Shown here: piece after piece, positions 28,381 through 62,114 of the stretch | How the letters are laid out: each line of letters opens with the position of its first letter | How positions within the stretch are numbered: position 1 is the first letter of the stretch | Source of the DNA: an uncultured Eubacteriales bacterium | GTDB lineage: Bacteria; Bacillota; Clostridia; Oscillospirales; Acutalibacteraceae | Assembly: GCA_934457115.1 (NCBI GenBank) | Contig: CAKSHI010000006.1 | Coordinates: forward strand, 23,556-87,555 | Direction: 5' to 3' | DNA: 64,000 bases | Position numbers and translations under genes: made by a program | The notes under the pieces: generated by a model | What the model was told of the DNA's origin: nothing | What the model saw: the letters and a program-made list of their open reading frames with translations, nothing else | Database searches by the model: none

Positions 28381-30309
28381 ATGGGACATTATAAAGCTAA
28401 ACGAGAAAAGGGAATACAAACTAAAGGAGTAAGTAACTATAATTTTAAAGGAGTAAATAACTATGATTATGTTTTAAGAAACTTTAAAGTAAAAGCTTTT
28501 ATATGGGATGATGACGAAGAATTAATTGATGATGAAGAAAATAAGCCCGATTATATTAAGATTGTGAAGAAACAAATAAAGGAGGCTAAAGCTAAGAAAA
28601 GAGAAGCTGAAGCTAAGAAAAAAGAAGAAGAAAATGATATTGTATTTGATTTTGAAAATGATGATCTGGAACCTGAAGAAGACGAAGAAAAAAATCTAAA
28701 TGAAGGAGGTTCTCAAGCAGAGATTGGAGTTAAAGAGAATAATAAGGAAGAAACCCCAACTCCAACACCTGAAAATGACTCAAAAGAGGAAAATCTAAAT
28801 GAAAAAGGTTCCCAAGCAGAGATTGAAGTTAATGAGAATAATAAGGAAGAAACCCCAACTTTAACACCTGAAAATGACTTAAAAGAGGAAAATCTAAATG
28901 AAAAAGGTTCCCAAACAGAGATTGAAGTTAATGAGAATAATAAGGGAGAAACCCCAACTCCTGAAAATAGAGAAAAAAAGATAGTAAATCCGGATGAAGA
29001 AATAAAAGTGTTGCATGTAGCAAATGATCGTGAGCTTGACATAAGAGGAAATGATGGGGATCAAAGTAATATAGAAGAATGCCCGGAAAGCATAAATAAG
29101 CCGCCTGTATTTGAAGCATATGTTAAAGTTAGTGCCATGAACAATTCGGATAATGGTCACTCATTTTTAGGCTTTAGGTTTACGTCGAAAGAAAAAGGAG
29201 CCGATGGACGAATTGTGTACCAAAGAAAACATATTTGTGTTGGATATGCACCGGATGGTGGAATGCTATTACAAATATTAGCTCTTACTCCTGCTGTAAT
29301 GCTACGCGATACAACCCATAGTGCAACTATAGGTTATCAAAAAGAGATCAGCTATGACAAGTTGCAATTATTAACCAGAAATATACCGGAATATTTTAAT
29401 CAATATCCAAAATACTCACTCCTAAAGAACAACTGTAATAGATTTGTTAGGTGTATGGCTAAGGGCATAGGTTTACCGGATATACATAGTATGTATAGTC
29501 ATCTTAATGTATTTAACGCACCAAAGAGATCTTTGAAGAATATGACAAAGAAATTTTATGAAGAACTTAAAAATGATGAAGATTCAGGTTCATCAAATTT
29601 TATGTTTAACTGGGCATCTAATCAGGTTAAGGGTGATGGAGATCCGGATTTATCAAATTTTGTGTTTAACTGGGCACCTAATAATGAGAAAAAATATACA
29701 ACGGGTATGGGTGGATTTAGAAACGTGAGAGATTTAGACATTTCAAGAGAAAAGTTCTTTGATAAGGCATTTGTAGGTTCAGAAAAGGATATGAGCTACT
29801 TTACAAAATTTTTGGTTATGCCTGGATTAGATGGCAATCTTGATAGGGCTACCAAATTGAGTGATGATGATAAATCTAAAAAGACTTTATTAAAAGAAAG
29901 TAGATTAAATAGATTACAAAGACTTTTTGGATCTGATGAAATATTAGATGAAATGTCAGAACTATTGCATTTATTAAAGTCTGATGAGGAAGATGAAGAT
30001 TCTAATAAGAATTATGGAACTACTGCAGACTTAAAAGTATTGCTTGACAAGGTTCCTGGTGCTATCGATTTTTATGATATAGATCTGCAACAAGATGGAG
30101 ATCTAGAAAAGAAGAAAGCACAAAGAGATAAAAGATATAGGAGGATCATATCACATCTAAGGAATATAGTTAAATTATCCGGAAAAAAACACAAACAATT
30201 TGTTTATTTTTGTATGCAAACAATTGACAGATATAAAATATTACTGGATCTTGAAAGCGCATCCGAATCTTCAAAGACATTTAATATTAATGAAACAGAA
30301 CATAAATAA
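28381..30309 (+). CDS. Orphan 642-aa protein: acidic tandem-repeat N-terminal region plus central permuted-papain (PPPDE/LRAT-like) Cys-His motif pair
   Basis: AGGAG RBS and a long AT-rich upstream region. NGHSFLGFRF (~29150-29173) is followed ~90 aa later by YSLLKNNCNRFVRCMAKGIGL (~29410-29470). This resembles the H ... Y-x-LL-x-x-NCN-x-F arrangement of PPPDE (peptidase C97) and the NCEHF motif of LRAT proteins. No signal peptide or TM segment. Confidence 0.6.
   Translation: MGHYKAKREKGIQTKGVSNYNFKGVNNYDYVLRNFKVKAFIWDDDEELIDDEENKPDYIKIVKKQIKEAKAKKREAEAKKKEEENDIVFDFENDDLEPEEDEEKNLNEGGSQAEIGVKENNKEETPTPTPENDSKEENLNEKGSQAEIEVNENNKEETPTLTPENDLKEENLNEKGSQTEIEVNENNKGETPTPENREKKIVNPDEEIKVLHVANDRELDIRGNDGDQSNIEECPESINKPPVFEAYVKVSAMNNSDNGHSFLGFRFTSKEKGADGRIVYQRKHICVGYAPDGGMLLQILALTPAVMLRDTTHSATIGYQKEISYDKLQLLTRNIPEYFNQYPKYSLLKNNCNRFVRCMAKGIGLPDIHSMYSHLNVFNAPKRSLKNMTKKFYEELKNDEDSGSSNFMFNWASNQVKGDGDPDLSNFVFNWAPNNEKKYTTGMGGFRNVRDLDISREKFFDKAFVGSEKDMSYFTKFLVMPGLDGNLDRATKLSDDDKSKKTLLKESRLNRLQRLFGSDEILDEMSELLHLLKSDEEDEDSNKNYGTTADLKVLLDKVPGAIDFYDIDLQQDGDLEKKKAQRDKRYRRIISHLRNIVKLSGKKHKQFVYFCMQTIDRYKILLDLESASESSKTFNINETEHK
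28690..28968 (+). repeat. 99-nt (33-codon) tandem repeat, about 2.8 copies
   Basis: Units start at 28690, 28789 and 28888. They encode ENLNEKGSQAEIEVNENNKEETPTPTPENDSKE variants. Confidence 0.9.
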
Positions 30310-41219: not shown

Positions 41220-41897
41220 ATGAGAAGAAATTCAGGTGTACTTTTGTTTGGATTAGCCCTAATAGGGGTATCAATTGTAATGATAGGTAATTTTTGTGGA
41301 TTATGGAAAATTGAAAATTTTGACGGTTGGTGGACATTGTTTTTGATTATACCGGGCTTTGCAGGAATTATAAAATCTGGATTTTCGTTTTGGAATTGCG
41401 CACTTATTTTAGTAGGTGCATGGTTTTTGGTTGATGCACAAAGTGAAAATTGGGGAATTACAAATGAGATGATGTTTGCTGTTCTATTATTGATGTTTGG
41501 TATAATGTTTATAGGCATCGCTGTAAAAAGAAGCAAAGCATCAAAAAATCCACTTGAGAATAACGAATACAGTGATGTGGTGACATATACTGCATTTTTT
41601 GGGGGCGCAGAGGCTGCCAATAGGTCTAAAGAGCTAAAACAAATTAGTTTATCTGCAGCGTTTGGAGGAATCAAGCTGGATTTGAGTGAGGCACAATTTG
41701 TTGATGGTGCAATTATAGGAGCAGATGCTATATTTGGCGGGATAGACATAATACTTCCAAAGGGATGTAGGGTTAAGGCTACGGGTCTACCCATTTTTGG
41801 AGGATTAAAAAATACATATGATGAAAGCATTGTGGACGGAAGTCCTTTGATAATTGTAGAATACAATGCGATTTTTGGTGGAATAGATATTAAATAA
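41220..41897 (+). CDS. LiaF-like (DUF2154-type) membrane protein
   Basis: Three to four N-terminal TM helices. The C-terminal region has recurring FGG motifs (FFGGAEA, AFGGIKLDL, AIFGGIDIIL, PIFGGLKN, AIFGGIDIK), typical of the LiaF C-terminal domain. Confidence 0.7.
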   Translation: MRRNSGVLLFGLALIGVSIVMIGNFCGLWKIENFDGWWTLFLIIPGFAGIIKSGFSFWNCALILVGAWFLVDAQSENWGITNEMMFAVLLLMFGIMFIGIAVKRSKASKNPLENNEYSDVVTYTAFFGGAEAANRSKELKQISLSAAFGGIKLDLSEAQFVDGAIIGADAIFGGIDIILPKGCRVKATGLPIFGGLKNTYDESIVDGSPLIIVEYNAIFGGIDIK

Positions 41898-54047: not shown

Positions 54048-54082
54048 TTATATAGTACAATTTTTGTAAAGAAGGTGTGGAC

Positions 54083-54493
54083 ATGCTATCAATAACCCTA
54101 AAAAAGCTTCGAGAAAATTGTGGCTATACTCAGCAACAAATTGCAGAAGCCTTAAATATCGACAGATCAACTTATGCATACTATGAATCGGGAAAGACAA
54201 CTCCTGATATTAATACAATAATCAAACTATCAAAGATTTTTAATGTCCCATACACTGAAATATTCGAAAATGAGGAAAATTGCACAATTTCTAGTGTGAG
54301 CGATGTCCAATCTGAAGAAGATGAGTTTTCGAGTCAATTTGGAAGAAAACAAAATACGCATATTTACGAACTTTCTAAGAAAGAGCAGCAAATTATAATA
54401 GGATTTAGATTATTATCAAAGCCATTACAAGATGAAGTTCTTGATGTGATTTATTGTAAGGCAAAAAATCTGTCTAAGAAAAAGAAACAATAA
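54083..54493 (+). CDS. XRE-family helix-turn-helix transcriptional regulator
   Basis: LKKLRENCGYTQQQIAEALNIDRSTYAYYESGKTTPDINTIIKLSKIF is a canonical Cro/C1 HTH. The ATG at 54083 lies 7 nt after GAAGG. The track GTG at 54077 is too close to the SD. Confidence 0.88.
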   Translation: MLSITLKKLRENCGYTQQQIAEALNIDRSTYAYYESGKTTPDINTIIKLSKIFNVPYTEIFENEENCTISSVSDVQSEEDEFSSQFGRKQNTHIYELSKKEQQIIIGFRLLSKPLQDEVLDVIYCKAKNLSKKKKQ

Positions 54494-54499
54494 AAATTC

Positions 54500-54538
54500 A
54501 AACTGCATTATCTATTTTAAAGGTAATGCAGTTTTTTT
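54500..54538 (+). terminator. Intrinsic terminator after the XRE gene
   Basis: aaactgcatta (54500-54510) pairs with taatgcagttt (54524-54534), followed by ttttat. Confidence 0.75.
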
Positions 54539-54598
54539 ATTTTAGTTTATTTGAAAAATTTAAAATAATGAGATGATTTTTTGTTATGTTGCAAAATT

Positions 54599-54607
54599 TG
54601 ATATAAT
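54599..54607 (+). promoter_or_regulatory. Extended -10 promoter element (TGaTATAAT) upstream of the small repeat-protein gene
   Basis: tgatataat at 54599-54607. It is immediately followed by a perfect 9-bp inverted repeat ATTGTATAT-N6-ATATACAAT (54608-54631). Confidence 0.45.
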
Positions 54608-54666
54608 ATTGTATATTATTATATATACAATTGTTTTCATATTAATATTTTTAAGGGGTGTTACAT

Positions 54667-55029
54667 ATGTTTGGTCTTTTGAAAAGTAAGGAGAAAGCAG
54701 GAAATAAGAAGAGTGATACATTTGGTGGTATACCGGTTAAAAGAACCGGTGTCAAGGCAGTGGATATTACTACGGGTACGGATGATAATAAGATTAACAA
54801 AGGTGGAACTTTTGGAGGAATACCAATTAAAAGAGGAGGGGTCCCGTCGATAGGAATGAACGCAGTAGAAGGAGATAACCATGTACATAAAGGCGGAACC
54901 TTTGGGGGAATACCAATTAAAAGAGGAGGAGTCCCGTCGATAGGAATGAACGCAGTGGAAGGAGATAGCCATGTACATAAAGGCGGAACCTTTGGAGGAA
55001 TACCAATTAAAAGAGGAGGAGTAAAATAA
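54667..55029 (+). CDS. Small (120 aa) Gly/Lys-rich tandem-repeat protein with four TFGGIP(V/I)KRxGV units; no recognisable family
   Basis: The ATG at 54667 lies 8 nt after AAGGGG. Own promoter-like element and downstream terminator. Protein: MFGLLKSKEKAGNKKSDTFGGIPVKRTGVKAVDITTGTDDNKIN then 2.5x KGGTFGGIPIKRGGVPSIGMNAVEGD(N/S)HVH. The antisense ORFs lack an SD. Confidence 0.6.
   Translation: MFGLLKSKEKAGNKKSDTFGGIPVKRTGVKAVDITTGTDDNKINKGGTFGGIPIKRGGVPSIGMNAVEGDNHVHKGGTFGGIPIKRGGVPSIGMNAVEGDSHVHKGGTFGGIPIKRGGVK
54799..55026 (+). repeat. 90-nt (30-codon) tandem repeat, about 2.5 copies
   Basis: Units at 54799-54888, 54889-54978 and 54979-55026 are nearly identical at the nucleotide level. The region is open in three of six frames. 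Confidence 0.9.
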
Positions 55030-55078
55030 ATAGTCATTAATTATTAAAATTCAAAATGGCCCCCATGCTTATAACTAT

Positions 55079-55122
55079 AAAAAGGAATCAGCTACTCCAA
55101 ATAGTGTCTGATTCCTTTTTAT
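55079..55122. terminator. Bidirectional hairpin between the small repeat gene (+) and tRNA-Ser (-)
   Basis: aaaggaatcag (55081-55091) pairs with ctgattccttt (55108-55118), with an A-run before and a T-run after. Confidence 0.65.
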
Positions 55123-55152
55123 AGTTACGTGGTATTTAGCTAAACTAAAATT

Positions 55153-55241
55153 TGGCGGAGAGTTAGGGATTCGAACCCTAGGTCCCTTTTGGGGACACAG
55201 CATTTCGAGTGCTGCACCTTCGACCACTCGGACAACTCTCC
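55153..55241 (-). tRNA. tRNA-Ser (anticodon CGA), CCA encoded
   Basis: The reverse complement is GGAGAGTTGTCCGAGTGGTCGAAGGTGCAGCACTCGAAATGCTGTGTCCCCAAAAGGGACCTAGGGTTCGAATCCCTAACTCTCCGCCA. Acceptor GGAGAGT/ACTCTCC. Anticodon stem CAGCA/TGCTG with loop CTCGAAA. Long variable arm GTCCC-CAAAA-GGGAC. T arm TAGGG-TTCGAAT-CCCTA. Confidence 0.93.
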
Positions 55242-55267: not shown

Positions 55268-55296
55268 ATTCTAAAGCTTTTTTCTATAATTGTCAA
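55268..55296 (-). promoter_or_regulatory. Sigma-A-type promoter of tRNA-Ser
   Basis: On the minus strand: TTGACA (complement of 55291-55296), 17-nt spacer, TAGAAT (complement of 55268-55273), about 27 nt upstream of the tRNA 5' end. Confidence 0.6.
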
Positions 55297-55688
55297 GGAA
55301 AGAAAATAGTTTTTATATATTGCAAAATTTAGCATAATGTTGTATACTGTAACATATATAAAATGATTGTTTGATTTGATATTTTTAGGACTTAATAATA
55401 TATGTTTTTTAAGACATAGGAAAGAATCAAGGGGTAATTAGAATTATAAATTAGTATTTTTTAGGTGAGAAGTCTAGAAGAATAGTGGATTTATAAATAG
55501 ATATAGATACAGTTAAATTATCATCCAAATTATATAACTGATTAAAAAGGTGATTTAAGTTTGCTAAAGATATAATAGAATAAGTTGCACAAGAAAAGTA
55601 TTTTTAGCAATTTGAATAGTATATTCATGGACATTGTTAAGGATATTTTGATTCTGATCGGGTTAATAAAACATTTTTAGAGGGTGAG

Positions 55689-58214
55689 ATGAAGACTATG
55701 TACGGCTCCTTAAAAAAAGATGAACTTATACAAAAGCAGGATATTCATGTAAATGGGTTAGATAAAGTCATGAATGCTAAGGCTAATTTACCGAAAAAAA
55801 GTTATTATGATGTATCTAAAGTAGATAAGGTTCAAGATTCATCATTGGATAAGAGCACGGAAGAATTTGTAATAGGTGTTGACGGACAAACCATTACTTC
55901 TAAAGAGTATAAGGATTCATGTGAGGCTAAGAAGATAATCATACAAAATGGGGTTAAGGAAATAAAAAAAGAAGCCTTTATTTGTAATCAAAATTTGGAG
56001 GAGATAGAACTTCCGGACAGTATTAAAGAAATACCGGAACGTGCGTTTTTAGGATGTGTAAAGTTAAAGAATATCAAATTATCTGAAAATATAAAAATAA
56101 TAGGGGAAAGTTCCTTTTATAGTTGTGGGAGTATTGAAAAAATAAGTATTCCAAATGGTGTAGAAGAAATATTATGCCAAGCTTTTGGTGGCTGTGGCAA
56201 ACTAAATAATATAGTTTTACCTAAAAGTATAAAGAAACTAGGGAATGAAGTTTTTCTATTTTGCACAAATCTTGAAAATGTGGAGCTTCCAAATAATATA
56301 GATAAAATACCGGATAGGGCCTTTTGCTGTTGCTCAAACTTAAAATCTATACAGTTACACGAGGGTATAGAAACGATAGGACAAAATGCCTTTTCTAATT
56401 GCAAAAATTTGGAGAAAATAGATATCCCGGAGAGTGTAACAGCAATATCTGATGGTGTTTTTTCGAATTGTTCCAGTTTAAAGTCTATAAAATTACCCAG
56501 TAAAATAGAATCAATAGGACAAAATGCCTTTTCTGATTGTAAGAATCTGGAGAAAATAGATATCCCGGAGAGTGTAACAGCAATATTTAACAGTACTTTT
56601 TCGAATTGTTCCGGTTTAAAGTCTATAAAATTGCCTAATGGAATTAAAACGATAGGACAAGATACCTTTTGTAATTGTAAAAGCCTAGAGGAAATAGATA
56701 TCCCTGATAGTATAACCGAAATACCGCCGGGAATCTTTAAAGGATGCCAAAATTTAAAATTTATAAAATTACCTAAAGGCATGAAAAAAATAGAGAGATT
56801 TACTTTTGATAATTGTGAAGGTATTGAAAGAATAGAACTTCCAAGTGAAATAACCGAAATACCGGAGGGGGCCTTTAGAAGTTGCAAAAATTTGAAGTCT
56901 ATAGAGATACCTAAGAACGTAAATAAAATAGGTACAAATGCCTTTATATGTTGTGAAGGTCTTATTGAGATAAGTTTCCATGAAAATTTAAACGAGATAA
57001 TGCCTAGAGCATTTGTAGGATGTAAAAGTTTAAAGTCTGTAAAATTGCCTAAAAATTTAGAAAGGATAGGGGAACTTGCATTTGCAAAATGCGATAAACT
57101 TGAGAAAATAGAACTTTCAGATAAGATAACCGAAATACCTGCCGGGGCATTTGGAGAATGTAAAAGTTTAGAGTCTATAATAATACCTAAAAGTGTAAAA
57201 AAAATAGAGAGGTTTGCTTTTGTCGGTTGCAAGAATTTAACAAGTGTAGATACTGATTTAAAACCGGAAGATTGTGACTTTGATGCTTTTGTGGGTTGTG
57301 ATCAGTTAGATTTTACAAAGGTATTTAAGTCCGGTCTTGAGGATTATTATGAAACAGTTTTAGACAAAAGATTTATTTATAAACAAGATGGTAAGGAACA
57401 TCATATAGAAAAAGAAAAAGGAAGGCAATTGCCGCTATTTTCTGAGGGTGGACCTAAAATAAAGGATATTAGGCAAGGATACATTGGTGACTGTTGGTTA
57501 TTAGCAAGCATTGCTTCTATAATTGATTGTAGGCCTGATGCTATAAAAAATATTGTGAAGGAAAATATTGAAGATGGTACTGTTGATGTGACACTTCAAA
57601 GGGAACTACTGCCGGGTTTGTTTAAAAAGGAAGTTTATAAGGTTCAAAAGTCTATATTTGAAGTCAATATAGGTAGAAAAGATAGGCCCATTATGTCAAA
57701 ATCAGATGAAAATATTTGGGTCCAAATGATAGAAAAAGCGTTTTCGGCATATTTGTCAAAAGGTGAAGAGAAAGTCGATTTCAATAATATTAGTGGATTT
57801 TGTGTGGATACCACAAATAATATTGAATACAAAAGGCAGAATGAGAAGGATGCATTTAAAATAATCCTTGGAAAGGAGGTAGACGGAGGGTATTTATTTT
57901 CTAAGGGGTTATGTATTGACCTCAAGAGATTGTTTGAAAGAATAAAACTGGCATTAAGTAATGGTATACCACTTTCCTATGCTTTGACTAATAGTGGAGA
58001 TACTGTACTTGATACAGACGGGGACAAACTTATTACTATTCATATGTATAGTATTGTTAGAACTGAGGAAAAGAATGGTAAATATTACATAAAGCTACGG
58101 AATCCATGGGGCTATAATCGTAAAGGTGAAAAGGAGACAAAGGGAGATATTATAACTGTTAATCTATTAGATGCTACTAGAGTTGCCTTTACAATACCAA
58201 ATTTAAGGTTATAA
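55689..58214 (+). CDS. BspA-type leucine-rich-repeat protein with C-terminal calpain-like (peptidase C2) cysteine protease domain, paralog 1 (841 aa)
   Basis: About 19 repeats of the pattern (L/I)xxIx(L/I)PxxIxxIxxxAFxxCxxL from ~55930 to 57250. The C-terminal domain has LFSEGGPKIKDIRQGYIGDCWLLASIASI (Cys codon 57492-57494), IHMYSIV (His 58041-58043) and KLRNPWGYN (Asn 58101-58103). No signal peptide, TM segment or cell-wall anchor seen. Confidence 0.8.
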   Translation: MKTMYGSLKKDELIQKQDIHVNGLDKVMNAKANLPKKSYYDVSKVDKVQDSSLDKSTEEFVIGVDGQTITSKEYKDSCEAKKIIIQNGVKEIKKEAFICNQNLEEIELPDSIKEIPERAFLGCVKLKNIKLSENIKIIGESSFYSCGSIEKISIPNGVEEILCQAFGGCGKLNNIVLPKSIKKLGNEVFLFCTNLENVELPNNIDKIPDRAFCCCSNLKSIQLHEGIETIGQNAFSNCKNLEKIDIPESVTAISDGVFSNCSSLKSIKLPSKIESIGQNAFSDCKNLEKIDIPESVTAIFNSTFSNCSGLKSIKLPNGIKTIGQDTFCNCKSLEEIDIPDSITEIPPGIFKGCQNLKFIKLPKGMKKIERFTFDNCEGIERIELPSEITEIPEGAFRSCKNLKSIEIPKNVNKIGTNAFICCEGLIEISFHENLNEIMPRAFVGCKSLKSVKLPKNLERIGELAFAKCDKLEKIELSDKITEIPAGAFGECKSLESIIIPKSVKKIERFAFVGCKNLTSVDTDLKPEDCDFDAFVGCDQLDFTKVFKSGLEDYYETVLDKRFIYKQDGKEHHIEKEKGRQLPLFSEGGPKIKDIRQGYIGDCWLLASIASIIDCRPDAIKNIVKENIEDGTVDVTLQRELLPGLFKKEVYKVQKSIFEVNIGRKDRPIMSKSDENIWVQMIEKAFSAYLSKGEEKVDFNNISGFCVDTTNNIEYKRQNEKDAFKIILGKEVDGGYLFSKGLCIDLKRLFERIKLALSNGIPLSYALTNSGDTVLDTDGDKLITIHMYSIVRTEEKNGKYYIKLRNPWGYNRKGEKETKGDIITVNLLDATRVAFTIPNLRL
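56376..56651 (+). repeat. 138-nt (46-codon, double-LRR) tandem duplication inside paralog 1
   Basis: ataggacaaaatgccttttct... begins at 56376 and again at 56514. The first ~120 nt of the two copies differ only at scattered positions (IETIGQNAFSNCKNLEKIDIPESVTAISDGVFSNCSSLKSIKLP versus IESIGQNAFSDCKNLEKIDIPESVTAIFNSTFSNCSGLKSIKLP). Confidence 0.9.
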
Positions 58215-58291
58215 AATGGATATAAGTATAGTGTTTTTAAGTGGGAATTGATTATGCATTGTAATTTTTCAGGACATGAAAAAAGAAACAA

Positions 58292-58553
58292 ATTCCTATA
58301 GTATAGGTGGTCCTAAACAAACGTGGAGTTTTACGCAGGGCTTGATTCTGGCGAATTAAATGATTTAAACGGAAATAAACTTAAAGATCATCGTGCTTAT
58401 AGATTGGTTGGTGTGGAAGAAAAGGAATGTGGATATTACATACAATTGTGAAATCCTTGGGGATATAATTGAGATAAAAATGATGCAGTTATAACAGTAG
58501 ATTTGAAAGAGGCCATTAGTGATAGATCACATATGTTAAATTTGCATGAATAA
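58292..58553 (+). pseudogene. Decayed, internally deleted remnant of a calpain-like domain (fourth paralog relic)
   Basis: Frame from 58320 reads NVEFYAGLDSGELNDLNGNKLKDHRAYRLVGVEEKECGYYIQL*NPWGYN*DKNDAVITVDLKEAISDRSHMLNLHE*. It is colinear with the C-terminus of paralog 2 (HHSYSLVGAEEREGRYYINLRNPWGYNWDKNHNKKDAVITVDLEEAI), with in-frame TGA at 58449-58451 and 58470-58472. Upstream, attcctatagtataggtggtcctaaa resembles the IPLFSEGGPK start of the domain. Confidence 0.75.
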
Positions 58554-58575
58554 GAGGAATGATAGGAGACTAGTT

Positions 58576-61500
58576 ATGTTTTTTAATTTTAATTTTTTAG
58601 GATCTGGAAAGGGCAAAACAGGTTTTAATATGGATAATTCCGACCAAGTGCCATATTTTGATCAGACTCCGGATTTAGGTGGAATTAGGGTTACTGCGGC
58701 ACAAGATTTTAATGATAATATACTAGAAAATGCACCCAGAATAGGACAAGAAGGAGAGACTATTGGCAGGAATCATATTTTAGGTTTAGAAAATGCCAGT
58801 GCGATATACATAAATGACGGAGTTATTGGTATAGATAAGTGGGCTTTTTCTAATTATAAAAATTTAAGAGAAATAAGGTTGCCGGAAAGCCTACGGGTAA
58901 TAGAAGATTGTGCTTTTTATGGATGTGAACAATTAAATGGAATAAGCTTACCGAAATCATTAGAAAAGTTGGGAACATATGTATTTTATGATAGTGGTTT
59001 GTGGAGCGTATGTTTTTGTGGTGATATACGAGAAATACCCGAGAGTACATTTGCAGAATGCAGGCAATTAAATTTAGTAATGCATAATAGTGGGGTTATA
59101 GAAAAGATAGGGAAAAATGCTTTTAGCAATTGTACAAACTTAACGGATACACACTTTATTATGAATGTAAACGAGTTAGGAGAGAATGCATTTCAAGGTT
59201 GTGAAAATATTGGAAACATAGAGTTTGAGGGCAATATAACCGAAATACCTGACGGAGCATTTAAAGATTGTAAATGTTTATCGATGGAATTGCCGTGTGG
59301 GATTAAAAGAGTAGGAAAAGAAGCATTTGCAGGGTGCACCGGTTTGATAGACTTAAGTTTACCATCGACTATAACAGAATTTGGGCAGCGAGCCTTTTCT
59401 GGTTGTACAGGATTGTGGGAGGTAGACTTTCATGGGGAAATGCCGGCAATAGATGGTTTTATTTTTGAAGGATGTACAAAGTTATATGAAGTAAAATTAC
59501 CAAGGAAACTAAAAAGGATAGGACATGGAGTTTTTGCCGATTGTAAAAACTTAACGAAAGTAGAATTTCCGGAAACCTTAGAAGAAATAGGACAAGGTGC
59601 ATTTTCAGGATGTGTGTACTTGAGAGATATAAATCTGCCAACAGGTATGAGAGGAGTTGGATCCAGCGCTTTTTACGGTTGTGAGGGTCTAAAAAAAATA
59701 GTATTGCCGAAAAGTATAGAAACAATAGGAGCGGATGCTTTTAAAGACTGTAAGCAACTTGAGGATATAAAATTTGAAGACGGTATAACCATGATACCTG
59801 ATTTTGCTTTGAGAGAGCTAGATTGTGTGAAACAAATAGAATTACCTCAAAGCGTAAAAGTAATAGGAATAAGCTCATTTAGACAATGTAAAAGTCTAGA
59901 GAAGGTAATATTAAATGAGGGTATAGAAAGAATAGGGGCAAATGCTTTTTGTGAATGTCAAAATTTAAGGGAGATAGTATTTCCTGAAAGCATGAGAGAA
60001 ATAGGAAAGGATGCTTTTAAGAATTGTGAAAATTTAACCAGAGTAGTACTCCCGAAAAGTATACAAGTAATGGAGCCCGGTATTTTTAGGGATTGTAAAA
60101 GTCTCGAGAAAGTAGAGATTGAAGAAGGAATCACCAAAATACCTGATATTACCTTTTGGGGATGTAGTGGTTTAAAGCAAATAAAATTGCCTGAGTCCTT
60201 AGAAGTAATAGGACAGTGTGCTTTTTCAGATTGTGAAAATTTAAGAGAGATAGTATTTCCTAAAAGTATGAAAGAAATAGGAATGGGTGCTTTTCAAAAG
60301 TGTTTAAGATTAGATAAAATAGTATTTCAGGGAGATATAGAAAGGATAGGGAAATCAGCCTTTATCGTTTGTGGAGAATTACTATCGAATGAAACGGAAA
60401 ATAGTGTAAAAAAATCAAGGAATAATAGTAAAAATCCTGATGGAGATGCAGTGCCTTTAAATGTACAAGAATTAGGGAAAAGTGCTTTTAATAATTGCAA
60501 AAGTTTATTAAACAGACCGATTAAGGTTATAAAAAAGATAGAGGAGAATGCATTTGTTAGCTGCGAAGACATAAGAGAAATAGAGTTGGGAGATGATATA
60601 ACCGAAGTACCTGAGGGTGCATTTAAGGGATGTAAAAATTTATCTAAAGTAAAAGTATCTGAAAATGTAAGGACAATAGGAAAAGAAGCTTTCTTCGGTT
60701 GCAAAAAATTAAGTGAGGCGGAATTACCGAAGGAAATAGATAAAATAGACGATTATGCCTTTGCCGGTTGCAAGAAATTGTCTTCTATAGGAAAAAATGC
60801 AGATGATAATGGGAAAAGTGTAAGAGAAGTAGGAGAAGGTGCATTTTTTAGATGCCTTGAGTTACATACAGGCTTTAAAGATATAGAGAAATTAGGAAAG
60901 GATTCCTTTTTTGGTTGCTTTTCTATGAGAAAGGTATCTTTTAATGATGGCATAGAAGAGATACCTGTCCGTGCTTTTAGTGATTGTGCATCTTTAACTA
61001 AGGTAGTATTCCCGAAAAGTGTAAGGAAAATAGGAATGCTTGCTTTTGATAACTGTAGTAAATTAACATCAATAACATTTGGAAATAAGAATAATATAGA
61101 AAGAATAGAAAATTATGCTTTTGCTGGGTGTAGGAATTTAAGGCATGTAAAACCGGAATTAAAGCCTGATATTTATGCCACTGATGCTTTCAAAGGTTGT
61201 TATAAAACAGATCTTGATAAATCTACTGAATCTAATCATTTTAATATATTAGATGAACAATTCTTCCTTGACGATAGGGAGGATAAGATGGTAGATGCAG
61301 GTCCCATAATAATAGAAGACAAGAGTGAGATTCCGCTATTTTCTGAAGGCGGACCTAAAATAGAGGATATTGCACAAAGAGAGATGGGTGACTGCTGGCT
61401 ATTAGCGGCACTGGGATCTATTGTTAATTTCAAACCGGGGTTTATAAAACATATAATGACTGATAATCCTGAAAACGGTACTGTAAGTGTGAAATTTCAA

Positions 61501-62076
61501 AGAGAGATACAAGGGCAATTTAGAACAGAAGTATATACAGTTAAAAAATCCATATTTAAAGCAAAAGTTATAGATAGGAATCAGACAATAATGTCGGAAT
61601 TGCAAGGGTGCCTCTGGCCACAAATGATGGAAAAGGCGTTTGCAGCATATTTGGATAATTACAGAGATTTAAGAAATTTTAATAGTATTTATAGTAGTAG
61701 AGACAACTTTTTTGGAGACAAAAGACCATTTAAAGTTATACTTGGAAGATTTGCAGAGAGTTCGGGAGAAGATGTTAGACTAGGTGGGGATCCAAAGACA
61801 CTATTTGAAAGAATACAAAGAAATTTACAAAATGGAATGCCTATGACATTTTCGACTAATTATAAATTAAACGACTTTGATGTAGATGAGGTTCAAAATC
61901 ATCATTCCTATAGCCTGGTTGGTGCGGAGGAAAGAGAAGGAAGATACTACATAAATTTGCGAAACCCTTGGGGATATAACTGGGATAAAAATCATAATAA
62001 AAAGGATGCGGTAATAACAGTAGATTTGGAAGAAGCAATTAGGGCCGGATCGTGGATATCAAATTTTTATAAATAG
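58576..62076 (+). CDS. BspA-type leucine-rich-repeat protein with C-terminal calpain-like cysteine protease domain, paralog 2 (~1166 aa)
   Basis: The ATG at 58576 lies 7 nt after AGGAG (track start 58546 has no SD). Long LRR array. C-terminal IPLFSEGGPKIEDIAQREMGDCWLLAALGSIV (Cys 61393-61395), NHHSYSLVG (His 61903-61905), NLRNPWGYNW. Confidence 0.8.
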   Translation: MFFNFNFLGSGKGKTGFNMDNSDQVPYFDQTPDLGGIRVTAAQDFNDNILENAPRIGQEGETIGRNHILGLENASAIYINDGVIGIDKWAFSNYKNLREIRLPESLRVIEDCAFYGCEQLNGISLPKSLEKLGTYVFYDSGLWSVCFCGDIREIPESTFAECRQLNLVMHNSGVIEKIGKNAFSNCTNLTDTHFIMNVNELGENAFQGCENIGNIEFEGNITEIPDGAFKDCKCLSMELPCGIKRVGKEAFAGCTGLIDLSLPSTITEFGQRAFSGCTGLWEVDFHGEMPAIDGFIFEGCTKLYEVKLPRKLKRIGHGVFADCKNLTKVEFPETLEEIGQGAFSGCVYLRDINLPTGMRGVGSSAFYGCEGLKKIVLPKSIETIGADAFKDCKQLEDIKFEDGITMIPDFALRELDCVKQIELPQSVKVIGISSFRQCKSLEKVILNEGIERIGANAFCECQNLREIVFPESMREIGKDAFKNCENLTRVVLPKSIQVMEPGIFRDCKSLEKVEIEEGITKIPDITFWGCSGLKQIKLPESLEVIGQCAFSDCENLREIVFPKSMKEIGMGAFQKCLRLDKIVFQGDIERIGKSAFIVCGELLSNETENSVKKSRNNSKNPDGDAVPLNVQELGKSAFNNCKSLLNRPIKVIKKIEENAFVSCEDIREIELGDDITEVPEGAFKGCKNLSKVKVSENVRTIGKEAFFGCKKLSEAELPKEIDKIDDYAFAGCKKLSSIGKNADDNGKSVREVGEGAFFRCLELHTGFKDIEKLGKDSFFGCFSMRKVSFNDGIEEIPVRAFSDCASLTKVVFPKSVRKIGMLAFDNCSKLTSITFGNKNNIERIENYAFAGCRNLRHVKPELKPDIYATDAFKGCYKTDLDKSTESNHFNILDEQFFLDDREDKMVDAGPIIIEDKSEIPLFSEGGPKIEDIAQREMGDCWLLAALGSIVNFKPGFIKHIMTDNPENGTVSVKFQREIQGQFRTEVYTVKKSIFKAKVIDRNQTIMSELQGCLWPQMMEKAFAAYLDNYRDLRNFNSIYSSRDNFFGDKRPFKVILGRFAESSGEDVRLGGDPKTLFERIQRNLQNGMPMTFSTNYKLNDFDVDEVQNHHSYSLVGAEEREGRYYINLRNPWGYNWDKNHNKKDAVITVDLEEAIRAGSWISNFYK

Positions 62077-62114
62077 GAGAAATAATAGTTTTTTTAAATT
62101 GTAGGAGATTGATT

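What the first reader, a model, noticed from the sequence alone, without database searches (positions are those of the whole stretch)
54667..55029. Small glycine-rich protein made of four TFGGIP(V/I)KRxGV units, encoded next to the LRR-calpain genes
Seen: a 120-aa ORF has its own extended -10 element, an SD and flanking terminators. Its product is MFGLLKSKEKAGNKKSD-TFGGIPVKRTGV-(16 aa)-[KGGTFGGIPIKRGGVPSIGMNAVEGD(N/S)HVH]x2-KGGTFGGIPIKRGGVK. The 90-nt units are almost identical at the DNA level. The locus is stop-free in three of six frames, which is why the track shows three overlapping ORFs. There is no signal peptide and no hydrophobic core, and each unit contains GG and KR dipeptides. Inference: a polyprotein-like arrangement of identical short units beside proteases is what a multi-copy peptide precursor or a dedicated protease substrate/decoy would look like. 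It could equally be a low-complexity structural or RNA/DNA-binding protein. I know of no characterised family with this repeat.
Basis: partly seen in the sequence, partly recalled or inferred. Interest (0 to 1): 0.7.

Follow-up and report, generated by a model that had tools for sequence, protein, structure and literature searches.

The report
Orphan glycine-rich tandem-repeat protein gene
This is a real small gene, found so far in one uncultured gut Clostridia species, that encodes a floppy glycine- and lysine-rich protein built from 2-6 copies of a short motif; it sits at the edge of a fast-evolving island of LRR-calpain protease genes, and a link to those proteases is plausible but unproven.

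Summary
The ORF at 54667-55029 (+) encodes the stated 120-aa protein. It has four TFGGIP(V/I)KR motifs, 2.5 near-identical 90-nt units, a promoter, an SD and flanking terminators.

The + frame is the coding frame. Its codon-usage score matches real genes, substitutions are mostly synonymous, and all alleles stay in frame.

It is an orphan. It has no Pfam or NCBIfam hit and no true homolog among 1.84 billion representative proteins. Motif scans of species genomes, JGI metagenomes and viral contigs found nothing.

Within its own species (an uncultured Oscillospirales-like gut MAG) the locus is highly polymorphic:
- alleles of 60, 120 (two types), 150 and 180 aa;
- a haplotype with a Cys-rich paralog built on TFCG(V/I)P(V/I)xR units;
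- a haplotype with no small gene.

Sister species lack the small gene, the tRNA-Ser and the LRR-calpain genes together, so all three belong to one species-specific, hypervariable island. A decayed copy of the small gene's promoter, 5'UTR and first 18 codons sits directly upstream of LRR-calpain 1.

My best inference, at low confidence, is a disordered multivalent linear-motif partner (pseudo-substrate or substrate) of the island's calpain-type proteases. The peptide-precursor reading lacks support. Interest is moderate.

The parts
54500..54534 (+). Intrinsic terminator of the upstream XRE-family regulator gene (54077-54493). It isolates the small gene from upstream transcription.
   Evidence: 14-bp stem followed by a T-run., I15.
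54544..54666 (+). P1, the promoter and 5'UTR of the small gene. It contains TTGCAA (54589-54594), the extended -10 TGATATAAT (54599-54607), an alternative -10 TATATT (54612-54617) and the SD AAGGGGTG (54653-54660).
   Evidence: The 27-nt core TTGCAAAATTTNNNATAATNTTGTATA occurs exactly twice in the window against 0.00 expected, and twice per strain in related loci.
54667..55029 (+). Coding sequence of the 120-aa Gly/Lys-rich repeat protein. Leader MFGLLKSKEKAGNKKSD is at 54667-54717. The motif TFGGIP(V/I)KR is at 54718-54744, 54808-54834, 54898-54924 and 54988-55014.
   Evidence: Codon-usage LLR is +0.46 bits/codon, against 0.40±0.08 for real genes and -0.79±0.34 for off-frames. dN/dS is 0.25 against allele L013.
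54799..55026 (+). Tandem array of 90-nt (30-aa) units, KGGTFGGIPIKRGGVPSIGMNAVEGD(N/S)HVH. There are two full units plus a 48-nt partial unit. Copy number varies between strains.
   Evidence: TRF. Alleles of 60, 120, 150 and 180 aa. Across eight full units there are 14 synonymous and 8 nonsynonymous segregating sites.
55072..55127 (.). Bidirectional terminator hairpin shared by the small gene (+) and the tRNA-Ser (-).
   Evidence: I1: 25-nt arms, 92% complementary, 6-nt loop, T-runs on both sides.
55153..55241 (-). tRNA-Ser(CGA). It belongs to the same species-specific block and is absent from this locus in sister species.
55275..55452 (+). P2, a decayed paralogous copy of the small gene's promoter, 5'UTR and first ~18 codons. 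The relic start reads MFFKT*. It lies upstream of LRR-calpain 1 and is probably that gene's promoter, giving a leader of about 300 nt.
   Evidence: blastn: 65% identity over 184 nt, E = 4.7e-12. (D4).
55689..58214 (+). LRR-calpain 1: BspA-type LRR_5 repeats plus a Peptidase_C2 domain with the Cys/His/Asn motifs present (GDCWLLA, HMYS, RNPWG). It has no signal peptide.
58576..62076 (+). LRR-calpain 2. The SD-supported start is the MFFNFNFLGSGKGK methionine at 58576; the longest ORF starts at 58546.
62115..64000 (+). Third BspA-type LRR_5 gene of the array, which runs off the window end.

Best explanation
**Shown.** 54667-55029 (+) is a genuine protein-coding gene. I found it only in one uncultured gut Oscillospirales-like species.
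- It encodes a basic protein with 23% glycine that is probably intrinsically disordered. A 17-aa leader is followed by 2-6 units, each presenting the short linear motif T-F-(G/C)-G-x-P-(I/V)-x-R.
- It evolves by unequal recombination of 90-nt units, concerted evolution, and gain or loss of a Cys-rich paralog.
- It lies at the left edge of a species-specific, hypervariable island made of the small gene, tRNA-Ser(CGA) and an array of LRR-calpain paralogs that have no signal peptide.

**Inferred.** The protein acts in the cytoplasm as a multivalent linear-motif partner of the island's calpain-type proteases.
- Each unit would dock in a protease cleft (or on an LRR surface) as a pseudo-substrate inhibitor or buffer, in the manner of calpastatin, or as a cleaved substrate.
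- It would be co-expressed with LRR-calpain 1 from paralogous promoters.

The mechanistic part is inference. The high confidence attaches only to 'real, orphan, repeat-variable, island-linked gene'.
For: **Coding on the + strand**
- It has a promoter, SD and terminators.
- The codon-usage LLR is +0.46 bits/codon, which equals real genes. The two stop-free antisense frames score -0.10 and -0.52.
- dN/dS is 0.25 against a divergent allele. Across repeat units there are 14 synonymous and 8 nonsynonymous segregating sites.
- An AGA-to-CGA change is synonymous only in the + frame.
- Every allele keeps the frame: 60, 120, 150 and 180 aa.

**Orphan status**
- Searches were all negative apart from the same species' 60-aa allele (P0001).

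**Disorder**
- AF2 gives mean pLDDT 48 and pTM 0.13. There is no hydrophobic segment and pI is 10.2.

**Island membership**
- Sister species (TGT 91% and 85% identical) go straight from XRE to a FUSC-like gene. They have no small gene, no tRNA-Ser and no LRR-calpain.
- Every contig that carries the small gene and is long enough also carries LRR-calpains downstream: the window, L003 and L013-L017.

**Link to LRR-calpain 1**
- P2 at 55275-55452 is a 65%-identical copy of P1 plus the 5'UTR and first 18 codons, E = 5e-12. It is present upstream of LRR1 in all strains.

**Shared evolutionary tempo**
- The small gene diverges 11% in nucleotides between strains. XRE diverges 1.4% and TGT 3.2%.
- LRR1 is only 64-86% and LRR2 43-56% aa-identical between the same strains.

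**Proteases look active**
- The catalytic Cys/His/Asn motifs are present.

**Precedent for the mechanism**
[quoted passage not shown] Its short TIPPxYR-type motif binds as a substrate analogue (PMC4057710).
Against: - No direct evidence of expression, interaction, cleavage or inhibition exists.
- The small gene is separated from the proteases by a terminator and an opposite-strand tRNA.
- Strain L007 keeps the LRR-calpain array but has no small gene, so it is dispensable for them.
- All co-occurrence comes from one species. It is therefore not phylogenetically independent and could be simple hitch-hiking.
- BLASTP finds no similarity between the small protein and the LRR2 N-terminus. hhalign finds none to LRR units. 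Pfam finds none to the calpastatin family.
- Calpastatin subdomains A and C bind EF-hand domains. The Pfam scan detected only LRR families and Peptidase_C2 in these proteins.
- The motif's fifth residue switches between I and K across alleles. That is a large change for a cleft-binding residue.
- The disorder call rests on a single-sequence AF2 model.
Confidence: 0.35

Rival explanations
1. The gene is a lineage-restricted disordered protein whose function has nothing to do with the proteases. Candidates include a basic KGG/RGG-like nucleic-acid-binding or condensate-forming protein, a stress protein, or a structural protein assembled without export (for example spore-associated). It only hitch-hikes in a recombination-prone slot beside tRNA-Ser.
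For: - The protein is basic (pI 10.2), Gly-rich, has repeated KGG / (K/R)RGG dipeptide contexts and is predicted disordered.
- It has its own promoter and terminators and is separated from the proteases.
- The slot between XRE and tRNA-Ser also takes an unrelated 579-aa HTH gene cassette.
- L007 has the proteases but not the small gene.
- In-frame copy-number variation is typical of structural repeat proteins (general knowledge).
Against: - The duplicated promoter and 5' end in front of LRR-calpain 1 and the joint presence/absence with the island in sister species would then be coincidence.
- There is no Pfam match to KGG-repeat or any nucleic-acid-binding family.
- No sporulation context appears in the window.
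Confidence: 0.3
2. The ORF is young and has little or no selected function. It arose when the promoter, leader and short 'MF...' upstream ORF of an LRR-calpain gene were duplicated. It was then extended and inflated by replication slippage of a 90-nt unit. It may be transcribed and translated but is evolutionarily transient.
For: - It was found only in one species.
- It shows presence/absence and gross structural polymorphism.
- P2 relic copies carry premature stops, MFFKT* and MFDFLERK*.
- In the L001/L002 haplotype a stop codon truncates the Cys-rich paralog just before a remnant of the terminal unit (EIPIKRGGVK).
- dN is about 12 times that of TGT.
- In the unique N-terminal 47 codons the pN/pS ratio is 0.3-0.8, based on very few changes.
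Against: - Codon usage is indistinguishable from established genes.
- dN/dS is 0.25 overall. Within K-type units there are 10 synonymous and 2 nonsynonymous segregating sites, and both nonsynonymous sites fall in one codon.
- The motif T-F-(G/C)-G-x-P-(I/V)-x-R is kept in a paralog that is otherwise only 40% identical.
- All five allele forms are in frame with an intact start, SD and stop.
Confidence: 0.2
3. It is a multi-copy peptide precursor, either a RiPP or a pheromone polyprotein. The leader is removed and the repeated units are released as about 30-aa or shorter peptides, possibly by the adjacent proteases, and are then exported.
For: - It has a leader-plus-repeated-unit architecture with conserved blocks flanking a hypervariable position.
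- A conserved Arg, often in a KR or RR pair, is present in each unit.
- A Cys-containing paralog is translationally coupled to it, with a 1-nt gap between stop and ATG.
- Proteases are encoded nearby.
Against: - It has no signal peptide or double-glycine leader consensus.
- There is no radical-SAM, YcaO, lanthipeptide or graspetide enzyme, no C39/ABC exporter and no receptor in the locus or in the allelic and sister loci.
- The LRR-calpains themselves lack signal peptides.
- The upstream XRE protein is 138 aa, matched only HTH families in Pfam with no TPR hit, and is conserved in sister species that lack the small gene.
Confidence: 0.07
4. The + frame is not the product. Either the real gene is the 128-aa antisense ORF (54651-55037, -) or the locus is non-coding repeat DNA.
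For: - The antisense frame is open.
- Because it shares third-codon positions with the + frame, it shows a similarly low dN/dS of 0.27.
Against: - The antisense frame scores -0.10 bits/codon, about 6 SD below real genes.
- It has no SD before its ATG and sits downstream of a terminator on its own strand.
- The open antisense frames are explained by the 67% purine sense strand.
- The AGA-to-CGA change is synonymous only in the + frame.
- GC and AT skew match + strand genes.
- No Rfam family matches within the ORF itself (54667-55029); the scan's only hits in the region were the tRNA-Ser and sub-threshold matches in the flanks.
Confidence: 0.03

Closest known systems
Calpastatin (endogenous inhibitor of animal calpains; Pfam Calpain_inhibitor)
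   Same: - Both are intrinsically disordered.
- Both are built of tandem repeated units (four in calpastatin; 2-6 here).
- In calpastatin each unit inhibits one protease through a short linear motif (TIPPxYR plus an upstream Leu-Gly) that lies in the active-site cleft as a substrate analogue (PMC5358782, PMC4057710).
- Here each unit has a T-F-G-G-x-P-I-x-R motif, and calpain-type protease genes are the only recurrent neighbours.
   Different: - There is no sequence homology (no Pfam hit).
- Units are 30 aa here against about 140 aa in calpastatin.
- There is no counterpart of subdomains A and C, which bind EF-hand domains; Pfam found only LRR families and Peptidase_C2 in these bacterial proteins.
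- Inhibition is untested.
- One strain has the proteases without the small gene.
- The resemblance is an analogy, not membership.
Co-encoded bacterial protease inhibitors (staphostatins with staphopains; potempins with Tannerella KLIKK proteases) - from general knowledge
   Same: A small protein encoded beside a cysteine or metallo-protease gene protects the producer or tunes protease activity. These inhibitors are lineage-restricted and fast-evolving.
   Different: Those inhibitors are folded beta-barrel proteins, usually in the same operon and without tandem repeats. This protein is predicted disordered, repetitive, and separately transcribed across a tRNA gene.
Multi-core peptide precursors (cyanobactin PatE-type RiPP precursors; fungal KEX2-processed repeat proteins) - from general knowledge
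   Same: A leader is followed by a variable number of near-identical units with conserved flanking blocks and a basic residue in each unit. Unit number differs between strains.
   Different: There is no maturation enzyme, no exporter and no signal sequence in any of the allelic contexts.
Strain-variable tandem-repeat structural proteins made without a signal peptide (e.g. Bacillus CotG, BclA collagen-like region) - from general knowledge
   Same: They are species-restricted and low-complexity, with in-frame copy-number polymorphism between strains and no secretion signal.
   Different: There is no sequence similarity, no evidence that this organism sporulates, no sporulation-type context and no recognisable mother-cell promoter.

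Membership tests
Calpastatin / Calpain_inhibitor | Sequence match to the family profile, including the subdomain B TIPPxYR motif with the upstream Leu-Gly | tested here: not met
   There is no Pfam family at E <= 0.01. The motif here is TFGGxP(I/V)xR, not TIPPxYR (motif definition from PMC4057710).
Calpastatin / Calpain_inhibitor | Intrinsically disordered protein made of several tandem inhibitory units | tested here: inconclusive
   There are 2-6 tandem units. AF2 gives pLDDT 48 and pTM 0.13, which is compatible with disorder, but the model is single-sequence.
Calpastatin / Calpain_inhibitor | Binds and inhibits a calpain-type protease without being cleaved | not testable with these tools
   This needs biochemistry or a multimer structure prediction. 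Only single-chain prediction of window sequences is available.
Multi-core RiPP / processed peptide precursor | A dedicated modification enzyme, leader protease and/or exporter encoded in the same locus | tested here: not met
   The neighbours are an XRE regulator, tRNA-Ser, LRR-calpains and housekeeping genes. The same holds in allelic loci.
Multi-core RiPP / processed peptide precursor | A leader followed by repeated core units with conserved recognition flanks | tested here: met
   The leader MF...K.N.K.D is shared by both paralogs and is followed by repeated motif units. This is architecture only.
RRNPP-type pheromone / XRE-receptor pair | An adjacent HTH receptor with a TPR peptide-binding domain, and a pro-peptide that is exported | tested here: not met
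   The XRE protein is 138 aa and matched only HTH families in Pfam. It is conserved in sister species that lack the small gene. The small protein has no hydrophobic segment.
KGG-repeat / GsiB-type stress proteins | Match to the KGG repeat profile | tested here: not met
   There is no Pfam or NCBIfam hit.
BspA-type LRR_5 repeat (derived fragment of the neighbouring genes) | Profile similarity between the 30-aa unit and the 23-aa LRR unit | tested here: not met
   hhalign gives probability 0.2% and E = 0.3. There is no LRR_5 hit in Pfam. The tblastn similarity to LRR1 units has E = 14.
LiaF-like C-terminal (FGG-repeat) domain | Match to PF09922 | tested here: not met
   The window's own LiaF-like gene (41220-41897) gives only E = 0.36 by tblastn. 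Pfam shows no PF09922 hit for the small protein.
Known anti-phage defence components (PADLOC) | Significant domain-level match to a PADLOC model | tested here: not met
   The only hit is a 21-bit summed score to PDC-M18A with no individual stretch passing. The LRR-calpains have no hits.

The most novel reading that the evidence does not exclude
The protein is a bacterial, convergently evolved counterpart of calpastatin. It would be a disordered, multivalent pseudo-substrate whose 2-6 TF(G/C)GxP(I/V)xR units each occupy the cleft of a cytoplasmic LRR-calpain protease. It would co-evolve with a hypervariable array of those proteases in a strain-specific island, possibly a sensor (LRR) plus effector (protease) conflict system held in check or read out by this protein.
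Probability: 0.15. Interest if true: 0.75.

Novelty: new variant of a known kind. Interest (0 to 1): 0.42.

Why it matters
If the inferred link holds, this would be the first bacterial example I know of in which a disordered tandem-repeat protein regulates, or is the target of, calpain-family proteases. It would also give a handle on the function of the widespread but uncharacterised BspA-LRR + Peptidase_C2 proteins of gut Clostridia.

Even without that link, the locus is a clean natural series for studying how small orphan repeat genes are born, expand and die inside one species. The series comprises absence, 60, 120, 150 and 180 aa, a Cys-rich paralog, and a decayed copy.

As it stands, it is a species-restricted gene of unknown function, so the practical impact is modest.

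Tried and rejected
**1. Homology searches**
- Pfam, NCBIfam and PHROGs gave nothing for the small protein.
- PADLOC gave only a 21-bit summed low-complexity score, which I disregard.
- The word-indexed protein search found nothing for the small protein or for the Cys-rich paralog. That tool did not even recover the proteins themselves, so it is insensitive to this composition.
- phmmer against 1.84 billion representatives returned the 60-aa allele plus three unrelated long repeat proteins (P0002-P0004). On inspection these are compositional matches.

**2. DNA-level family scans**
- A back-translated profile scan of GTDB species genomes gave 80 pattern matches, none confirmed.
- My own 'MF + two motif units' pattern gave 0 hits in the viral, genome and JGI metagenome collections. 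A relaxed version gave 0 in the metagenome and viral collections.
- Caveat: the genome-collection scans used the stricter patterns. Those would miss alleles with GGKP in unit 2 or NKNSD in the leader.

**3. tblastn against phage and plasmid records**
- Nothing meaningful was found.

**4. Derivation from, or a shared N-terminal module with, the LRR-calpains**
- A relaxed motif [FLIVM][GC]G[IV][PR][VI] occurs outside the ORF only in the N-termini of LRR2 and LRR3, as 'LGGIRV'. Several LRR paralogs start with 'MF'.
- However, BLASTP finds no alignment, other strains' LRR N-termini lack the motif, and about 0.4 chance hits are expected by my rough estimate. I keep this only as a lead.

**5. The unit as a degenerate LRR_5 repeat**
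- hhalign was negative.

**6. Relation to the LiaF-like FGGI repeats at 41220-41897**
- The similarity is not significant.

**7. Structured RNA**
- Rfam at permissive thresholds gave only the tRNA.

**8. Substitution patterns as a strand test**
- This is not decisive. The 128-aa antisense frame shares third-codon positions with the + frame.
- The strand was settled instead by codon usage, the SD, skew and one Arg-codon change.

**9. Fold search**
- I did not run it. The AF2 model is too poor (pLDDT 48).

**10. Literature search on bacterial LRR-calpain proteins**
- It returned nothing relevant.
Full report
**1.

The ORF at 54667-55029 (+) encodes MFGLLKSKEKAGNKKSD-TFGGIPVKRTGV-KAVDITTGTDDNKIN-[KGGTFGGIPIKRGGVPSIGMNAVEGD(N/S)HVH]x2-KGGTFGGIPIKRGGVK.
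- Tandem Repeats Finder gives period 90, 2.5 copies and 94% matches.
- A degenerate pattern for the motif hits four times, against 0.01 expected.
- The SD AAGGGGTG ends 6 nt before ATG 54667. TGATATAAT (54599-54607) and a TTGCAA-17-TATATT arrangement are both present.
- A terminator precedes the promoter at 54500-54534. A 25-bp-arm hairpin follows the stop at 55072-55127.
- Three frames are open. This follows from a sense strand that is 67% purine.
- The protein is basic (pI 10.2), 23% Gly, and has no hydrophobic segment.

**2. The + frame is the coding frame**
- I trained a codon-usage log-odds score on 28 Pfam-confirmed genes of the window. The + frame scores +0.46 bits/codon. Real frames score 0.40±0.08 and off-frames -0.79±0.34. 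The two open antisense frames score -0.10 and -0.52.
- GC and AT skew match + strand genes.
- Between the window allele and the L013 allele there are 41 differences in 360 nt, with dN/dS = 0.25.
- Across eight full repeat units from different alleles there are 14 synonymous and 8 nonsynonymous segregating sites. Among the K-type units it is 10 against 2, and both nonsynonymous sites fall in codon 27.
- The 128-aa antisense ORF shares third-codon positions and so shows a similar ratio of 0.27. Substitutions alone therefore do not settle the strand.
- Codon usage, the SD, the terminator layout and an AGA-to-CGA change that is silent only in the + frame do settle it.
- Rfam finds nothing within the ORF itself; its only hits in the scanned region are the tRNA and sub-threshold matches in the flanks.

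**3. It is an orphan**
- There is no Pfam, NCBIfam or PHROGs family.
- phmmer against 1.84 billion cluster representatives finds one true relative, P0001. This is a 60-aa form of the same protein without the two full units. The other hits are unrelated long repeat proteins.
- Profile-derived and hand-made degenerate DNA scans found nothing in 185,579 species genomes, the JGI metagenomes or IMG/VR. Phage and plasmid records gave nothing.
- The organism is an uncultured gut Eubacteriales/Oscillospirales-like MAG. Its TGT is 82-84% identical to Ruminococcaceae and Caproiciproducens entries.

**4. Within that species the locus is extraordinarily polymorphic**

I used exact-protein look-ups and TGT orthologs as anchors. 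These gave the following haplotypes.
- (a) XRE, 120-aa gene, tRNA-Ser, LRR-calpains. This is the window, L003-L006.
- (b) The same layout with a divergent 120-aa allele whose units read TFGGKPIRRGGISSVGMNAVEGDxHVH (L013-L015).
- (c) 150-aa and 180-aa alleles with one I-type unit and then three or four K-type units (L016-L019).
- (d) A 60-aa allele followed 1 nt later by a 113-aa Cys-rich paralog, MFAFSGCMGGSRKKKNKND-[TFCG(I/V)P(V/I)xR(S/N)LGKK...]x4. After it comes a remnant of the ancestral last unit (L001, L002).
- (e) No small gene at all. A 579-aa HTH protein lies between XRE and tRNA-Ser instead, with the LRR-calpains intact (L007).

The two paralogs share the leader and the motif T-F-(G/C)-G-x-P-(I/V)-x-R but little else, at 40% identity. 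Unit counts from short-read assemblies could be under-estimates.

**5. Relation to the LRR-calpain genes**
- The neighbours are confirmed as BspA-type LRR_5 + Peptidase_C2 proteins. Their catalytic Cys/His/Asn motifs are present and they have no signal peptide.
- The small gene is not in their operon, because a bidirectional terminator and a minus-strand tRNA-Ser(CGA) intervene.

Three observations tie them together.
- (i) In sister species (TGT 91% and 85% identical) XRE is followed directly by a FUSC-like gene. The small gene, tRNA-Ser and LRR-calpains are all missing together. They therefore form one species-specific block.
- (ii) 55275-55452 is a decayed copy of 54544-54722, which spans the promoter, 5'UTR and first 18 codons. 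Identity is 65% over 184 nt with E = 4.7e-12. Its 27-nt core occurs exactly twice per strain, before the small gene and before LRR-calpain 1. The second copy is followed at the same spacing by the relics MFFKT* or MFDFLERK*. The two genes thus probably use paralogous promoters, and a small-gene copy once sat directly upstream of LRR-calpain 1.
- (iii) Both evolve much faster than their surroundings. The small gene diverges 11% in nucleotides, against 1.4% for XRE and 3.2% for TGT. LRR1 is 64-86% and LRR2 43-56% aa-identical between strains whose TGT is 97-99% identical.

Two points count against an obligate partnership. Haplotype (e) has the proteases without the small gene. All the evidence comes from a single species.

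**6. Mechanism**

Nothing here shows function directly. The anatomy is a disordered basic chain (AF2 pLDDT 48) that displays 2-6 copies of a conserved nine-residue motif separated by less constrained spacers. That is the anatomy of a multivalent short-linear-motif protein.

The only recurrent, co-inherited and probably co-regulated genes are cytoplasmic calpain-type proteases fused to peptide-binding LRR domains. The closest working precedent is calpastatin. It is a disordered protein with four inhibitory units, each of which places a short motif (Leu-Gly ... TIPPxYR) across the calpain cleft as a substrate analogue (PMC5358782, PMC4057710).

I therefore rank the readings as follows.
- Pseudo-substrate inhibitor or substrate of the island's calpain-type proteases: about 0.35.
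- An unrelated disordered protein that merely hitch-hikes: about 0.30.
- A young ORF with little selected function: about 0.20.
- A secreted multi-core peptide precursor: about 0.07. There is no signal peptide, maturation enzyme, exporter or receptor in any haplotype.
- An antisense or non-coding reading: about 0.03.

It is not a member of the calpastatin family. There is no sequence match, the unit size differs, and there are no A/C subdomains. The resemblance is functional analogy only.

**7. Leads tested and dropped**
- The N-termini of LRR2 and LRR3 contain 'LGGIRV', and many LRR paralogs begin with 'MF'. BLASTP finds no alignment and other strains lack the motif.
- The unit loosely resembles a BspA LRR unit (IP..V..IG.NA.), but hhalign gives 0.2% probability.
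- The window's LiaF-like gene has FGGI repeats, but the similarity is not significant.
- The PADLOC hit is a summed low-complexity score.

**8. Verdict**
The protease link is plausible and now has circumstantial support. The peptide-precursor idea does not.
- The gene is a previously undescribed, species-restricted repeat-protein family. It is a new variant of the known kind 'fast-evolving tandem-repeat disordered protein', possibly protease-associated.
- Interest is moderate (0.42). The natural allelic series and the island context are attractive, but without expression or interaction data the function remains inference.

Noticed in passing
window 58323-58451: A 42-aa ORF (MEFYAGLDSGELNDLNGNKLKDHRAYRLVGVEEKECGYYIQL) resembles the C-terminal end of the calpain domain of LRR-calpain 2 (...HHSYSLVGAEEREGRYYINLRNPWG). 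It is probably a pseudogene relic between LRR-calpain 1 and 2, which points to recombination within the array.
   Followed up: partly
window 55689-64000; L007, L013, L016: The LRR-calpain paralogs are hypervariable between strains whose TGT is 97-99% identical. LRR1 is 64-86% and LRR2 43-56% aa-identical, with differing lengths (841, 856 and 911 aa) and fused or fragmented forms (1428-aa and 1382-aa genes carrying two Peptidase_C2 hits in L016 and L017). None has a signal peptide.
   Followed up: partly
L001 1248-1589; L002 422-763: A 113-aa Cys-rich, Lys-rich paralog has four TFCG(I/V)P(V/I)xR(S/N)LGKK units with a period of 24 aa. It starts 1 nt after the stop of the 60-aa allele, and its SD lies inside the upstream gene. 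It ends at a stop codon that truncates what looks like an ancestral terminal TFGGIPIKRGGVK unit.
   Followed up: partly
L007 11882-13621; L001 6-887: A 579-aa protein with an N-terminal Cro/C1-type HTH and a large unassigned C-terminal region is present or absent as a cassette between XRE and tRNA-Ser. In L001 it lies directly upstream of the small genes; in L007 it replaces them.
   Followed up: partly
window 54490-54505 and 55043-55058: Imperfect 16-nt direct repeats, ATAAAAATTCAAACTG and ATTAAAATTCAAAATG, flank the small-gene cassette just after the XRE stop and just after the small-gene stop. A similar ATTATTAAAATT string sits at the junction in the strain lacking the gene (L007 ~13680). 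This could mark the recombination points for cassette gain or loss, or could be chance in AT-rich DNA.
   Followed up: no
window 55362-55688: About 300 nt of apparently non-coding leader lies between the P2 promoter-like element and the LRR-calpain 1 start. No Rfam family matches it, and a 5-codon relic ORF (MFFKT*) sits at its 5' end. It could be a regulatory 5'UTR.
   Followed up: partly
window 58576-58700 and 62115-62230: The N-termini of LRR-calpain 2 and the third LRR gene are 40% identical low-complexity Gly/Lys/Asn-rich segments that contain (D/N)LGGIRV(T/N)AA(Q/H)DFN. Most LRR paralogs in related strains start with 'MF', as do the small proteins. The similarity to the small protein is not statistically supported.
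   Followed up: yes
unit codon 27 (window 54877-54879 and 54967-54969): The residue between GD and HVH is the one hypervariable position of the 30-aa unit, taking D, G, N or S across units and alleles. The rest of the unit is held constant through many synonymous changes.
   Followed up: partly
window 41220-41897: This is a LiaF-like membrane protein (PF22570 + PF09922) whose C-terminal domain carries repeated (A/I)FGGI motifs and ends in ...AIFGGIDIK. It is locally reminiscent of TFGGIPIK, but the similarity is not significant.
   Followed up: yes
window 28381-30309: A 642-aa ORF among housekeeping genes has no Pfam family at E <= 0.001.
   Followed up: no
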